Assembly: GCA_036390115.1 (NCBI GenBank)
Contig: DASWCM010000003.1
Coordinates: 101,111 to 165,110, forward strand
DNA: 64,000 bases
Reading direction: 5' to 3'
From: Blattabacteriaceae bacterium
GTDB taxonomy: Bacteria; Bacteroidota; Bacteroidia; Flavobacteriales; Blattabacteriaceae
In this document: piece by piece, positions 11,526-55,014 of the stretch
How positions within the stretch are numbered: the stretch's first letter is position 1
Layout: the number at the start of each line of letters is the position of its first letter
Translations under genes and position numbers: made by a program
Notes under the pieces: model-generated
Database searches by the model: none
What the model was told of the DNA's origin: nothing
What the model saw: the letters and a program-made list of their open reading frames with translations, nothing else

Positions 11526-12530
11526 ATGGATTTACAAAATTTCATTAAACCAGATAAACCTTTAGTTTTAAATTCAAACCAAGAATCTGGTCTTTTCCAG
11601 ATTAAACCTTTAGCTCCAGGTTTTGGTTGCACCATTGGAAATTCACTTAGAAGAGTTCTTTTGTCGTCTTTGGATGGATTTGCTGTTACCTCAATAAAAA
11701 TTGAGGGAGTAGGGCATGAATTTTCTACAATAAAAGGAGTTCTGGAAGATGTAACTGAAATTGTACTAAATTTTAAAAAAATCCGCTTTAAAAAAATAAA
11801 AAAAAGCGGTAATGAGAAAAACATTGAGACTGTTTATGCAAATCTTATTGATAATGACTGCGTCACTGCAGAGTCTCTAGAAAAATTCATTACTTCATTT
11901 AAAGTACTGAATCCAGATTTAATTATTTGTAACAAATATAAATCTGAACCGCTCTCTATTATTTTTACTATAGAAATAGGGATAGGATATGTTCCTGCTG
12001 AAAATAATAAGAAAAAAGAGTTGTCTCTAGGTACTATATTCATGGATTCTATCCATACCCCTATTAAAAATGTTAAATATTCTATAGAAGAAAAATATTG
12101 TTTGGCGAAAAAACATAACTTGGAGACCCTATTGTTAGAAATAAAAACGGATGGTTCCATTTCTCCAGAAGATGCCTTAAAAAAAGCTTCAAATATATTA
12201 ATGCAACATTTTTCTATTGTCTCTGACTCTGACGAGTTCAGAAAAACTTATGAAGAAGCTAAAAAGGAGGATACTGAAAAAATTTGGAGACTGTTAAAAA
12301 CAAATATTTCTGATGTAGAAAATTTAGGAAAACGTACTTTGAACTGCTTTAAAGCAGCAGGAATAAAGACTTTTTCAGATTTAGTTTATTATAATGAAGA
12401 GACTCTTCTTAAATTGAAGAATTTTGGTAGAAAATCTTTGGAAGAAGTAGAATATGAAATGAAGAAAAGAGGTTTATATTTCGGAATGGATCCATCGAAA
12501 GATCTTCTAAATAGAGACAATAATCCATGA
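11526..12530 (+). CDS. rpoA: DNA-directed RNA polymerase subunit alpha
   Basis: 334 aa. GFGCTIGNSLRRVLLSSL motif, and a C-terminal domain with RTLNCFKAAGIKTFSDL and NFGRKSLEEV. Confidence 0.96.
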   Translation: MDLQNFIKPDKPLVLNSNQESGLFQIKPLAPGFGCTIGNSLRRVLLSSLDGFAVTSIKIEGVGHEFSTIKGVLEDVTEIVLNFKKIRFKKIKKSGNEKNIETVYANLIDNDCVTAESLEKFITSFKVLNPDLIICNKYKSEPLSIIFTIEIGIGYVPAENNKKKELSLGTIFMDSIHTPIKNVKYSIEEKYCLAKKHNLETLLLEIKTDGSISPEDALKKASNILMQHFSIVSDSDEFRKTYEEAKKEDTEKIWRLLKTNISDVENLGKRTLNCFKAAGIKTFSDLVYYNEETLLKLKNFGRKSLEEVEYEMKKRGLYFGMDPSKDLLNRDNNP

Positions 12531-12934
12531 AACACGGAAAAAAAATAAATCACTTAGGAAAAAGTGCACCTCATAGAAAAATTCTTCTAGCTCATTTGGC
12601 GAATTCACTTCTCAAACATAAGAGGATAAATACTACTCTAGCAAAGGCTAAATCATTAAGGAGGTATATAGAACCAATAATTTCTAAAAGTAGAAAGGGA
12701 GATATTCATTCTATGCGAATGATATTTAAACGGTTACAAAATAAAGCTATGGTTGCAGAACTTTTTAACTCTATTTCAGAAAAAGTATCTAGTCGTCCAG
12801 GAGGTTATACAAGAATTATTAAAACAGGGTATAGATTGGGAGATGGAGCAGATACTGCTATTATTGAAATAGTTGATTTTAATGAAATATACAAAAAAAA
12901 CAAGAAAATCAGTAAAATAGATGAGCAAAATTAA
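12527..12934 (+). CDS. rplQ: 50S ribosomal protein L17
   Basis: MKHGKKINHLGKSAPHRK start and PGGYTRIIKTGYRLGDGA. Confidence 0.95.
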   Translation: MKHGKKINHLGKSAPHRKILLAHLANSLLKHKRINTTLAKAKSLRRYIEPIISKSRKGDIHSMRMIFKRLQNKAMVAELFNSISEKVSSRPGGYTRIIKTGYRLGDGADTAIIEIVDFNEIYKKNKKISKIDEQN

Positions 12935-13776
12935 AGATGTTTTTGCCCTTAAAATATTAGATTATACCCACTATTGAAGTGGATGGAAGCAGTGTGAATG
13001 AAATAATTGCTCCATAAATAAAGGGTCTCAAAGTCTTAGAGATCAATTAATGATTGATATTGACGTAACAGAAAATAAAAGTAGTCTTGGAGCTAATGCT
13101 ATTCTTTTCATTAGCTGATGCTAAAGCTGCCTCAGCTTATACTGTTACCATGATGAATATAGTTCCTCCTATTTATTTTCAATAATTTCTGATTGTTCCA
13201 GTATCTGCTAATAGCTTTTCGTAAACTGTTAGAATGGGAGTAACTCTTACGTAGTCTCAGTTGTAGATGAAGGTGGATTTTAATCAAAATTTGATAGTAC
13301 TGAAGAAGCATTAGATGCATAATCCATTGAAAAATCAGGATATAAACCTGTTGAAGAAATAATGCTTGCTTTAGATTGCGCTTCTTCCGAATTTTATTTA
13401 AACGTAAAATATGATTATACTCGTTTTGAAGGGGAAAAAGGTTGTTTACGTTCTAGTGAAGAACAAGTTAATTATTTAATTAAGCTTATTGAAAAGTATC
13501 CAATAATCTCTATTGAATATGGAATGGATCAAAACGATTGGGAAACTTTTAACTGAAAAAAATAGGAAAAAATGTCCAATTAGTAGGGGATGATCTATTC
13601 GTTACAAATCTTTCTAGATTAAAGGAAGGTAGGGTCATAATTATACGAACGATAATGTCTCATCGTTCTGTGAATATTATACGATATATGATTTATCGGT
13701 AGCTTTTAAAACTGGATCAGCTTCTCTCGCATGGCGAAGTATAATCAATTGATAATAATTGAATAAATGCTAGCTT
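12921..13776 (+). pseudogene. eno: Enolase pseudogene (multiple frameshifts, stops and deletions)
   Basis: Enolase-like peptides appear in collinear order but in different frames, separated by stops. They are MSKIKDVFALKILD (ATG 12921), PTIEVD, NKSSLGANAILFIS then [63 protein letters not shown] (ORF 13362..13556), VQLVGDDLFVTN (13574, another frame), MSHRS, and MAKYNQLIIIE stop (13776). Confidence 0.88.
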
Positions 13777-13870
13777 TTTGGGGCTTTGCTTCATTTCTGA
13801 CAGTAGCTTGCTTGTGTAGCTACAAAAAAAATAAGCAAATTAAAGTAAATGTATTAATTTTTCTAAAATT

Positions 13871-14941
13871 ATGGCTGGTAATACTTACGGTAAACTTTTT
13901 AAGCTGACCACTTTCGGGGAAAGTCACGGAGGAGCTATAGGTGGAATAATAGATGGATGCCCATCTGGGCTTTCAGTAAATTTTGAAAAAATCCAATACG
14001 AACTATCTAGAAGAAAACCTGGACAATCATCCATTGTTACTCAACGTAGAGAAGATGATTTTGTAACCTTCTTCTCTGGAATTTTTAATGGAATTACGAC
14101 AGGGACCCCTATTGGATTTTCTATTTACAATAGAAATCAAAAATCAATAGATTATGAGCATATAAAATCTGTATATAGACCTTCCCATTCGGATTTTACA
14201 TATGATAAAAAATATGGATTAAGAGATTATAGAGGAGGTGGCAGATCTTCTGCCAGAGAAACAGTTTGCAGAGTAGCCGCTGGATCTATTGCCAAACAAT
14301 TACTAATGCTAAAAAACGTAAAAATAATTGCTTACGTTTCCTCCGTTGAGGAGTTTAGCTTAGAGAAAAACTTTATAAATCTAGATCTCAACTCTATAGA
14401 ATCTAATCCTATTCGCTGTCCAAATCCATATATTTCCAGTAAAATGATAGATTTAATTAAAAAAGTGAGAAAATCTGGAGACTCCGTAGGAGGAGTAATA
14501 AGTTGTGTCATTAAAAATGTACCAATTGGACTAGGAGAGCCCATTTTTAATAAACTTCATGCAGAATTAGCTCACGCTATGTTATCTATTAATGCAGCTA
14601 AAGGGTTCGAATTCGGAAGTGGATTCTCTGGAACCCATATGAGGGGGTGTAATCACAATGATATTTTTAACGTTGATGGAACCTCGAAAAAAAATTTTTC
14701 TGGGGGAATTCAAGGTGGAATATCTAATGGGATTGACATATATTTTAGCGTAGCCTTCAAGCCCATAGCAACTTTGATGAGTACACAGATAACCTTAGAT
14801 AAAAATGAAAATATATGCCTTTCCAAAGGAAAAGGACGGCATGATCCTTGCGTTCTCCCTAGAGCAGTTCCTATTGTGGAAGCTATGGCTGCCTTAGTTT
14901 TAGCTGATTATTGGCTTTATGGAAAGCTAACAAAACTATGA
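13871..14941 (+). CDS. aroC: Chorismate synthase
   Basis: 356 aa. [45 protein letters not shown] and GRHDPCV motifs. Confidence 0.95.
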
Positions 14942-43507: not shown

Positions 43508-44581
43508 TTAATCATATTTTACTAAACTTTTTAGTTGTTCCAAACTTTCTTGAATGATTACATCGCCTACTTTTTTATCGTAGTAACAATCTCCTATAGT
43601 TCTAAGAAGGGAAAAGCAAATTTTTCCTATCTCATTTTTTTTATCATTTAGCATTAAACTCCGAAGAGTTTCTGCGGTTTTTTGGTCAATTTCCTTTACT
43701 GGATAAGTATTCGAAAGATTTTTACTGATTTCATCATATTGTTTTTCTGTAAGGCAATTTATTTTCCAAGAAATCCAAGATTCGCAAATCATTCCAAAAG
43801 CAATTGCTTCTCCATGTGAAACAGGAGAATACCGATCAAGAAAAAAAGCTTCTAAAGCGTGGCCTATAGTGTGCCCAAAATTAAGAATTTTTCTTGATCC
43901 AAATTTCTCTTTTGGATCAATACGAACCATTCTGGTTTTTATAAGAATGGATCTTTCAATAAAAGATCTCCCAATTAAATTATTGGATAAAATATTTACT
44001 TCTTTCCAAAAAGAATAATCTGCAACTAGTCCATATTTAAAGATTTCTGCCATTCCTGATTTTAACTCCCTTTTTCCTAAAGTTTTTAGATAATTAAGAT
44101 CAATTAAAACTAATTCCGCTTCTTTGAAAATACCAATTTCATTTTTTACTCCGTTAAAATCAATCCCAGTTTTGCCTCCTATAGAAGCATCTACCATAGA
44201 AAGAAGGGTTGTTGGAACATTTAAAAAACTTATTCCTCTTTTGAAAACTGAAGCTGAAAACCCCCCCATATCAGTAATAACACCACCACCAAGATTAATA
44301 AGAAGACTCTTTCTATCGGCATTTTGTTTTTCAAATTCTTTCCAAATTTTTATACAATTCTGTATATTTTTTTCTTTTTCGCCAGTAGGTACCTCTACAA
44401 TTTTAGCTGTTCTTAAAAATGTTACGCGATTATACAAATATGGAAGACAATATTCTCTTGTATTTGAATCAACCAAAATAAAAATATTCGATAGATCCCT
44501 TTTATGGGAAAAAATATGCAATTGTTTGTATGCCTCTTCCCCAAAAAACACAGATGAGGGGAGTATAGAGATATTTTTCAC
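43508..44581 (-). CDS. aroB: 3-dehydroquinate synthase
   Basis: 357 aa. [38 protein letters not shown] and [12 protein letters not shown]. Confidence 0.94.
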
Positions 44582-53732: not shown

Positions 53733-54557
53733 TCATAAAGAGACTTTATATTCCCTTAAAGCTTCATTTAAAGAGGTTTTTTTATCGGTGCTCTCTTTTC
53801 TCTTTCCAAGAATTAGAGCACATGGAATATGATAAATACCTGCAGCAGGTAATTCCTTAGGATAAGATCCAGGAATTACCACAGAACGAGATGGAATGAT
53901 TCCTTTCATTAGTTTGGATTGAGATTTTGTAACATCGAAAATTTTAGTGGATGAGGTCAAAACTACATTAGCTCCTAAAACAGCTTCTTTCTTTATATGG
54001 ACTCCTTCAACTACAATACATCTTGAACCGACAAAGACATCATCTTCAATAATTACTGGTGATTTATGAATAGGTTCTAAAACGCCTCCTATCCCGACTC
54101 CTCCACTAATATGGACCCTTTCCCCAATTTGAGCACAACTCCCTATAGTGGCCCAAGTATCTATCATAGTAGATGCTCCAATATAAGCTCCAATATTTAC
54201 ATAGGAAGGCATTAGCACAACTCCAGAAGAGATATAAGATCCATATCGTGCAATAGCTGGAGGGACCACTCTAATATTTTTTTCTCTATATCTCCCCTTT
54301 AATGGTATTTTATCATTAAATTCTAAATTTACTGATTTAAATACTTCCATTTTTTGGATCCAAAAAAACATTAATATGGATTTTTTTATCCATTCGTTAA
54401 CCTTCCATGTTTCTGGGTTTAATGGCTCAGATACTCTAAGAGTTCCTTGATCAAGTTTTTCAATTATTTCAAAAACAACATTTTTCACAGAATCTTCTTT
54501 CCATGATTTATTATCAATCCAGTTTTCCTCTATTACCTTTTTAAATCTTTTTTTCAT
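53733..54557 (-). CDS. dapD: 2,3,4,5-tetrahydropyridine-2,6-dicarboxylate N-succinyltransferase
   Basis: 274 aa. Left-handed beta-helix hexapeptide repeats (GAYIG..TMIDTWATIGSCAQIGE.VHISGGVGIGGVLEP) and an N-terminal DapD-type helical domain. Confidence 0.9.
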   Translation of the reverse strand: MKKRFKKVIEENWIDNKSWKEDSVKNVVFEIIEKLDQGTLRVSEPLNPETWKVNEWIKKSILMFFWIQKMEVFKSVNLEFNDKIPLKGRYREKNIRVVPPAIARYGSYISSGVVLMPSYVNIGAYIGASTMIDTWATIGSCAQIGERVHISGGVGIGGVLEPIHKSPVIIEDDVFVGSRCIVVEGVHIKKEAVLGANVVLTSSTKIFDVTKSQSKLMKGIIPSRSVVIPGSYPKELPAAGIYHIPCALILGKRKESTDKKTSLNEALREYKVSL

Positions 54558-54561
54558 TAAA

Positions 54562-55014
54562 ATGTCAAAAATATTAGGAATAGATTATGGGGTGAAAAGG
54601 ACTGGAATATCCATTACGGATGAGTTTAATTTTATTGCTTGCGGGTTAACTACAGTCCCAACAAAAAAGTTATTTTACTTCTTAAACGAATATTTAAAGA
54701 AAGAATCTATAAAAAAAATTGTTATAGGTCTTCCTAGACAAGAATTCTCTTTGGAAAGAGTTATTCAAAAATTTATTAATGATTTTAGAAAAAAACATTC
54801 TGAAGAACTTACAATAGTTCGTATTGACGAATGTTTTACTTCAAAATTAGCTAAATATGCACTTGCAAAAAGTTATCTAAAAAAGAAAAAAAGAATGGAT
54901 AAATCTATTGTAGATAAAATAAGTGCTGCAATTATTTTGCAGTCTTTTCTAGATAGAGAAAGATTAATCTCTAATAAATTAGATGATGATTCTCCCAATC
55001 ATACTTTACGGTAA
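54562..55014 (+). CDS. ruvX: Putative pre-16S rRNA nuclease / Holliday junction resolvase-like YqgF
   Basis: ILGIDYGVKRTGISITD start and DECFTSKLA and AAIILQSFLD motifs. Confidence 0.88.
   Translation: MSKILGIDYGVKRTGISITDEFNFIACGLTTVPTKKLFYFLNEYLKKESIKKIVIGLPRQEFSLERVIQKFINDFRKKHSEELTIVRIDECFTSKLAKYALAKSYLKKKKRMDKSIVDKISAAIILQSFLDRERLISNKLDDDSPNHTLR

What the first reader, a model, noticed from the sequence alone, without database searches (positions are those of the whole stretch)
12921..13776. Enolase is a heavily decayed pseudogene next to intact shikimate genes
Enolase peptides are recognisable over the full gene length but are spread over all three frames with many stops and deletions. 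For example, the SRGN of ILDSRGNPTIEVD is deleted. Enolase makes PEP, and PEP is a substrate of two shikimate-pathway steps (DAHP synthase and EPSP synthase). aroB and aroC in this window are intact. By inference, the symbiont must obtain PEP by another route or from host or co-symbiont.
Basis: partly seen in the sequence, partly recalled or inferred. Interest (0 to 1): 0.6.

Follow-up and report, generated by a model that had tools for sequence, protein, structure and literature searches.

The report
Dead enolase gene in tiny symbiont
The enolase gene of this 335-kb insect-symbiont-like bacterium is a long-dead remnant, so the cell must import the phosphoenolpyruvate that its intact aromatic amino-acid pathway consumes; this dependence is already known from related symbionts.

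Summary
Confirmed, but ordinary. Window 12921-13776 (+), between rplQ and aroC, is the positional orthologue of enolase. It has shrunk to 856 of about 1,290 nt, with 6 TAA stops, 8 frameshifts and about 140 codons deleted. Several catalytic motifs are among the losses.

It is not an assembly error. An independent JGI metagenome contig is identical over 6,071 bp apart from one SNP in aroC. Two sister lineages (92-96% identical in neighbouring genes) carry the same remnant. All three lack the SRGN codons through the same 7-8-nt frameshifting deletion, and almost all other lesions are private. So eno died before these lineages split and has eroded independently since.

I found no second eno, pyk, ppdK/pps, pckA, pgk or gpm in the 8-contig genome (96.85% complete). 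All seven shikimate genes are open, and two of them use PEP. Transketolase is also gone, so the cell has no source of its own for erythrose-4-phosphate (E4P) either, and no MFS or EamA transporter was found. It matches published reconstructions of Sulcia and Walczuchella.

New here are the three-lineage decay series and a decayed SRP RNA next door.

The parts
12921..13776 (+). eno pseudogene (phosphopyruvate hydratase remnant), 856 nt of an original ~1,290 nt
   Evidence: It has 6 TAA stops, 8 frameshifts and ~140 codons deleted. It lies directly after rpoA-rplQ, as the intact eno does in six family relatives.
12960..12972 (+). Site of the ancestral frameshifting deletion that removed the S-R-G-N codons
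   Evidence: intact GAT TCT AGA GGA AAT CCT ACT against G000 GATTATACCCACT. G001 has GATTCTATCCTACT (7 nt lost), and L042 has GATTCTACCTACT (8 nt lost, as in G000).
13183..13185 (+). TAA in place of the Glu of the FQEFMI motif (equivalent of yeast enolase Glu168; the numbering is from my own knowledge)
   Evidence: stop TAA at 13183, reference aa 163 (E), context AFQEFMI.
13362..13556 (+). Longest surviving open stretch (64 aa, Enolase_C fragment), a chance ORF rather than a gene
   Evidence: JGI's gene caller lists it as a 64-aa PF00113 product. In G001 it is broken by two frameshifts, and in L042 it is mostly deleted.
12527..12934 (+). rplQ (L17), intact upstream neighbour; its last 14 nt overlap the former eno start codon
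   Evidence: PF01196, 114 bits.
13775..13825 (-). Remnant of the SRP RNA gene (ffs); about 50 of 98 nt remain
   Evidence: The sister lineage has RF00169 at 42.2 bits (gathering score 40) at the homologous place. The window has two deletions there and gives no RF00169 hit even at E<=10.
13871..14941 (+). aroC (chorismate synthase), intact downstream neighbour
   Evidence: PF01264, 445 bits. dN/dS against G001 is 0.19.
43508..44581 (-). aroB (3-dehydroquinate synthase), intact

Best explanation
This is a unitary, non-functional pseudogene of enolase in a very small (about 335 kb, 31% GC) Flavobacteriales symbiont-type genome known only from metagenomes. Shown: a 7-nt deletion in codons 15-18 shifted the frame before the three sampled lineages of this genus diverged. 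Since then each lineage has lost different 1-500-nt pieces and gained stops, most of them TAA (all six in this window). Shown: no other PEP-forming enzyme and no pgk or gpm is detectable, while the full seven-step shikimate pathway stays open and under purifying selection. Inferred: lower glycolysis was abandoned once PEP became available from outside, from the host cell or a co-symbiont. After that eno had neither a substrate nor a role, and it is being removed by the deletion bias usual in such genomes. The two PEP molecules needed per chorismate, and the E4P, are imported by an unidentified route.
For: Lesion map. Family identity. Positional orthology (rpoA-rplQ-eno in six relatives). Independent assembly identical over 6,071 bp apart from one SNP. 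Sister remnants with one shared lesion and many private ones. At 324 of 432 reference positions at least one lineage still has a recognisable codon, so the ancestor was close to full length. No second copy and no ghosts of pgk, gpmI or pckA. No pyk, PPDK/pps, pckA, pgk, gpmI or gpmA. Shikimate genes open. Flanking genes have dN/dS of 0.19-0.31 against G001, whereas the remnants differ by roughly 30-50 indel events. Published parallels: PMC3971599 and PMC2936742.
Against: The genome is in 8 contigs and is estimated 96.85% complete, so a gene in a gap cannot be formally excluded. No read pile-up or RNA-seq could be examined. Substitution divergence between remnants could only be bracketed at 5-21%, depending on the alignment. 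That bracket overlaps both the coding-gene range and the synonymous range, so neutrality rests on indels and stops, not on substitution rate. The PEP source and the import route are inference only: no MFS or EamA/TPT transporter was found, and neither the host nor any co-symbiont is known.
Confidence: 0.9

Rival explanations
1. The stops and frameshifts are assembly or sequencing errors in a low-coverage metagenome bin, and the real gene is intact.
For: The genome is a fragmented 8-contig metagenome assembly. Reads could not be inspected.
Against: About 430 nt are missing, not just a few homopolymer slips. A separate JGI contig of a different length, carrying one SNP, has the identical remnant. 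Two diverged lineages from other samples show the same locus decayed, with a shared deletion. Neighbouring genes in the same contig are open.
Confidence: 0.01
2. The locus still makes a working enzyme through recoding (TAA read as sense, or programmed frameshifts) or as split subunits.
For: All six in-path stops are TAA.
Against: rplQ, immediately upstream, ends in TAA. Eight frameshifts of different sizes lie outside homopolymer runs. The Ser-loop, the GGAHS loop and the KVNQIGT motif are deleted, and the Glu168-equivalent codon is a stop. The sister lineages are broken at different places, so no reading scheme is conserved.
Confidence: 0.01
3. An intact eno or another PEP source exists in an unassembled part of the genome or on a small replicon, so PEP is still self-made.
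For: There are 8 contigs and the completeness estimate is 96.85%.
Against: The sister genome G001 (20 contigs, 96% complete) also has none. pgk and gpm are missing too, so a stray eno would have no substrate. Most tiny-genome members of the family lack all of these genes.
Confidence: 0.04
4. The remnant persists because part of it now has a non-coding role, for example as a promoter or spacer for aroC or ffs, or as a small peptide.
For: A central block (13360-13521) is about 95% identical between G000 and G001, and a 64-aa ORF survives there.
Against: The block carries two 8-nt indels between G000 and G001, and the third lineage has largely deleted it. The promoter-like count is below the shuffled expectation: 5 against 7.7. 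The block was also picked after seeing the data.
Confidence: 0.04

Closest known systems
'Candidatus Walczuchella monophlebidarum' (309-kb flavobacterial symbiont of giant scale insects; PMC3971599)
   Same: It is a tiny Flavobacteriales symbiont with many pseudogenes and most of glycolysis lost. The paper's comparison table lists eno, pgk, tktN and tktC as present in Uzinura and absent in Walczuchella. The authors state that PEP for Phe/Trp synthesis must be supplied from outside, probably by the enterobacterial co-symbiont.
   Different: No eno remnant is described there, whereas here the gene is still recognisable. This genome keeps gapA and aroE, which that paper lists as absent. It is also a different, unnamed genus from metagenomes with an unknown host.
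'Candidatus Sulcia muelleri' metabolic network (PMC2936742)
   Same: PEP and erythrose-4-phosphate are obligatory imported precursors for its amino-acid output, potentially supplied by the co-symbiont or the host.
   Different: The loss in Sulcia is ancient and, in the small-genome genera searched here, leaves no trace. Here a dated decay series is visible.
'Candidatus Shikimatogenerans silvanidophilus' (308-kb Bacteroidota beetle symbiont; PMC8113238)
   Same: It has a similar genome size, its metabolism centres on the shikimate pathway, and it has the bifunctional aroG/pheA-type DAHP synthase.
   Different: It uses the opposite supply solution, keeping a full glycolysis to make its own PEP and E4P. 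This genome has lost that supply.
'Candidatus Uzinura diaspidicola' (G013, contig of 263,431 bp; identification from my memory of the genome size)
   Same: It belongs to the same family and has the same rpoA-rplQ-eno arrangement.
   Different: Its eno (432 aa) and pgk are intact.

Membership tests
Enolase / phosphopyruvate hydratase (TIGR01060; PF03952 + PF00113) as a functional member | Sequence homology to both enolase domains | tested here: met
   PF00113 scores 139.8 bits (cut-off 21.5). PF03952 scores 33.8 bits, just under its cut-off of 35. tblastn with intact relatives gives E of 4e-43.
Enolase / phosphopyruvate hydratase (TIGR01060; PF03952 + PF00113) as a functional member | Score above the equivalog cut-off of TIGR01060 | tested here: not met
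   186.2 bits against a cut-off of 300, even for the read-through translation.
Enolase / phosphopyruvate hydratase (TIGR01060; PF03952 + PF00113) as a functional member | One uninterrupted reading frame of about 420-435 codons | tested here: not met
   The longest ORF is 64 aa. There are 6 stops and 8 frameshifts, and 856 nt remain.
Enolase / phosphopyruvate hydratase (TIGR01060; PF03952 + PF00113) as a functional member | Catalytic and metal-binding residues (yeast numbering from my own knowledge: S39 loop, H159, E168, E211, D246, E295, D320, K345, H373, K396) | tested here: not met
   The PSGASTG loop, the GGAHS loop and the KVNQIGT motif are deleted. The E168-equivalent codon is TAA. SHRSGETE is cut by a 7-nt deletion. 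E211, D246, E295, D320 and K396 equivalents are still readable.
Unitary pseudogene of a reduced endosymbiont genome | Orthologous position to an intact gene in relatives | tested here: met
   rpoA-rplQ-eno is on one strand in six family genomes with an intact eno. The remnant sits directly after rplQ.
Unitary pseudogene of a reduced endosymbiont genome | No intact paralogue in the genome | tested here: met
   with the caveat that the assembly has 8 contigs and is 96.85% complete.
Unitary pseudogene of a reduced endosymbiont genome | Lesions are real and not assembly artefacts | tested here: met
   An independent contig is identical. The lesion is shared across three lineages. Read pile-ups were not available.
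Unitary pseudogene of a reduced endosymbiont genome | Evolves without coding constraint | tested here: inconclusive
   The lineages accumulate different frameshifts and deletions, which argues for no constraint: about 30-50 indel events between G000 and G001. Substitution divergence is only bracketed at 5-21%, and the remnant dN/dS of 0.63 depends on the alignment.
Unitary pseudogene of a reduced endosymbiont genome | Not transcribed or translated into a product | not testable with these tools

The most novel reading that the evidence does not exclude
This unnamed genus is known only from metagenomes; I recall, without checking, that the sample series is soil from the Angelo reserve. It may be caught just after switching from self-supply to import of both shikimate precursors. 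PEP and E4P would then enter a cell that has no recognisable MFS or EamA/TPT carrier, by a host-provided or otherwise undescribed route. The three-lineage series of eno, tktN, ffs, ffh, ftsY and atp remnants would give a dated order of these losses.
Probability: 0.12. Interest if true: 0.55.

Novelty: new member of a known kind. Interest (0 to 1): 0.22.

Why it matters
It matters modestly. The locus adds a clean, well-controlled example of how a central-metabolism gene disappears from a shrinking symbiont genome: one ancestral frameshift, followed by independent piecemeal deletion in three descendant lineages. Such a series can be used to measure the indel spectrum and deletion bias of neutral DNA in these bacteria.

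It also fixes the metabolic reading of this unnamed organism as a chorismate and aromatic amino-acid producer that depends wholly on outside PEP and E4P. That is the Sulcia/Walczuchella solution, not the Shikimatogenerans one. None of this changes current understanding.

Tried and rejected
- **Exact-product look-up.** The look-up of encoding contigs on the window's own aroC returned nothing. The one-residue variant P0002 and the 91%-identical relatives did return contigs.
- **Literature.** A search for 'Walczuchella' plus 'enolase' found no paper. The gene symbol 'eno' was found by reading PMC3971599.
- **Ghosts of other genes.** tblastn with pgk, gpmI and pckA from relatives found no remnants in this genome.
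- **Substitution-rate test of neutrality.** Global MAFFT gives 79-82% identity, inflated by forced alignment of non-homologous pieces. A gap-permissive alignment gives 94-95%, which hides mismatch clusters. I rejected this as a decisive measure.
- **TAA recoding.** I considered it because all six stops are TAA. I rejected it because of the frameshifts, the deleted catalytic motifs, and the use of TAA as the stop of rplQ next door.
- **The 64-aa ORF or the conserved central block as a functional element.** Rejected, because it is frameshifted in G001 and largely deleted in L042.
- **Promoter and terminator scan.** Nothing above the shuffled expectation.
- **Other notes from this scan.** A word search found no comparable enolase pseudogene elsewhere.

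Full report
**Observation**

The 937-nt gap between rplQ (12527-12934) and aroC (13871-14941) holds no ORF longer than 64 aa. Translating 12921-13870 in three frames shows enolase peptides from the N-terminal MSKIKDVFALKILD to the C-terminal AKYNQLIIIE, scattered over all frames.

- Pfam Enolase_C hits the locus at 80.7 bits with internal stops.
- tblastn with intact enolases of relatives gives summed E-values down to 4e-43.
- A read-through translation, with X at each lesion, scores 139.8 bits on PF00113, 33.8 on PF03952 and 186 on TIGR01060, whose equivalog cut-off is 300.

I wrote a frameshift-aware protein-to-DNA alignment and ran it against the 432-aa enolase of the relative G003. It gave 284 alignable codons at 62% identity, six in-path stops (all TAA), eight frameshifts, and about 140 codons missing in 16 blocks. 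The remnant is 856 nt against about 1,290 nt for an intact gene.

Intact relatives read GAT TCT AGA GGA AAT CCT ACT, and the window reads GATTATACCCACT.

Mapping catalytic residues uses yeast enolase numbering from my own knowledge. The Ser39 loop, the His159 loop and the Lys345 motif (KVNQIGT) are deleted. The Glu168-equivalent codon is TAA at 13183. SHRSGETE is cut by a 7-nt deletion. The locus cannot encode an enzyme.

**Is it real?**

- A JGI metagenome contig (sample 3300012200, Ga0137382_10000001, 155,480 bp) covers the region. It is identical to the window over 6,071 bp apart from one substitution at 14091 in aroC, and it has no indels.
- The same-genus genome G001 (identical here to JGI 3300039643, Ga0435553_00001) has a syntenic remnant of about 920 nt, with 15 frameshifts and other deletions.
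- A third lineage, a Logan contig of SRR30711659, has a remnant of about 580 nt. It lacks codons 106-274 but keeps the C-terminal third far better.

All three lack the SRGN codons through the same deletion. G001 has lost 7 nt. G000 and the Logan lineage have lost 8 nt. These two are also each other's closest relatives in rpoA, miaA and aroC: 93.3-95.9% identity, against 92.4-94.6% to G001.

Almost all other lesions are private. At 324 of 432 reference positions at least one lineage still has a recognisable codon, so the gene was near full length when the lineages split. The simplest history is one ancestral frameshift followed by independent erosion. Assembly error is excluded for practical purposes.

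**Orthology and copy number**

In six family genomes with an intact eno, including two about 0.6 Mb in size (probably Blattabacterium) and one of 263,431 bp that I take to be Uzinura, the gene lies directly after rpoA-rplQ on the same strand. The remnant occupies that slot. Pfam and tblastn searches of the whole 334,739-bp, 8-contig genome (96.85% complete) find no other enolase.

**Metabolic context**

| Role | Gene or family | Result in this genome |
|---|---|---|
| PEP formation | pyk | not found |
| PEP formation | PPDK/pps N-domain | not found |
| PEP formation | pckA | not found |
| Lower glycolysis | pgk | not found |
| Lower glycolysis | gpmI, gpmA | not found |
| Lower glycolysis | gapA | open |
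| Shikimate pathway | DAHP synthase (361-aa ORF) | open |
| Shikimate pathway | aroB | open |
| Shikimate pathway | aroQ | open |
| Shikimate pathway | aroE | open |
| Shikimate pathway | aroK | open |
| Shikimate pathway | aroA | open |
| Shikimate pathway | aroC | open |
| E4P supply | tktN | 187-aa relic, 22 bits |
| E4P supply | tktC | absent |
| Candidate importers | MFS_1, EamA/TPT | none found |

The neighbouring genes are under purifying selection against G001, with dN/dS of 0.19-0.31. The cell therefore needs two PEP and one E4P per chorismate and can make neither.

**Rate analysis**

Between G000 and G001 the remnants differ by roughly 30-50 indel events, while the flanking genes align almost without gaps. 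Substitution divergence could only be bracketed, from about 5-6% in securely aligned blocks to about 21% in a global alignment. The neighbours show dS of 0.12-0.23 and dN of 0.03-0.05. I do not rely on this measure.

**Comparison with what is known**

A survey of 83 genomes of the family gave the following:

- eno is intact in all 49 genomes of the roughly 0.6-Mb genus, in the four 1.3-1.7-Mb members, in G005 and in one of two genomes of genus g6.
- eno was not found in 25 small genomes of four genera.
- Recognisable remnants occur only in this genus.

The Walczuchella paper lists eno, pgk, tktN and tktC as present in Uzinura and absent in Walczuchella. It states that PEP must be supplied from outside, probably by the enterobacterial co-symbiont (PMC3971599). 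For Sulcia, PEP and E4P were computed to be obligatory imported precursors (PMC2936742). Shikimatogenerans, of similar genome size, keeps full glycolysis for exactly this supply (PMC8113238).

The finding is thus a new member of a known kind. Its added value is the dated three-lineage decay series.

**Verdict**

Novelty is low, and I score interest at about 0.2. The main open items are read and RNA evidence, closing the genome, and identifying the host and a possible co-symbiont.

Noticed in passing
window 13775-13825 (minus strand); L026:3343-3440 and L043:2359-2456 in the sister lineage: The SRP RNA gene (ffs) lies between eno and aroC in the sister genome (RF00169, 42.2 bits, gathering score 40). 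In this window it is reduced to about 50 of 98 nt by two deletions and no longer matches the family. The Logan lineage shows no hit either. Together with the ffh and ftsY pseudogenes noted earlier in this window, all three SRP components appear dead in this genome.
   Followed up: partly
outside the window: G000:C6 about 54050-54850 (minus strand): A 187-aa ORF is a decayed relic of the transketolase N-terminal subunit (PF00456, 22 bits, profile positions 198-245 only). tktC is absent, since only sucA and pdhB carry PF02779. Uzinura, G005 and G010 keep tktN, and Uzinura and G010 also keep tktC next to it. The cell therefore has no source of its own for erythrose-4-phosphate.
   Followed up: partly
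G001-like record (P0005): The closest named public protein (91% identical aroC, on a 249-kb contig) is labelled 'MAG TPA: Candidatus Angelobacter sp.'. That genus belongs to Acidobacteriota, yet the sequence is clearly Flavobacteriales (68-70% identical to Blattabacterium). The label is probably wrong. From memory, the JGI Ga0137xxx series is Angelo reserve soil, which would mean the host is a soil arthropod; I did not verify this.
   Followed up: partly
whole genome G000: Only one EPSP_synthase-family gene (aroA) is present. murA, the other PEP-using member of the family, was not found, which fits loss of peptidoglycan synthesis.
   Followed up: no
window 12921-12934: rplQ is 135 aa here, against 126 aa in G001 and 132 aa in the Logan lineage. 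Its 3' end now runs 14 nt past the former eno start codon, so the C-terminus of L17 drifts freely next to the dead gene.
   Followed up: no
G000:C3:170811-171284 (outside the window): gapA is kept intact (346 aa) although pgk, gpm and eno are gone. This isolated glycolytic enzyme is also retained in G001, G005, G010 and G013.
   Followed up: no
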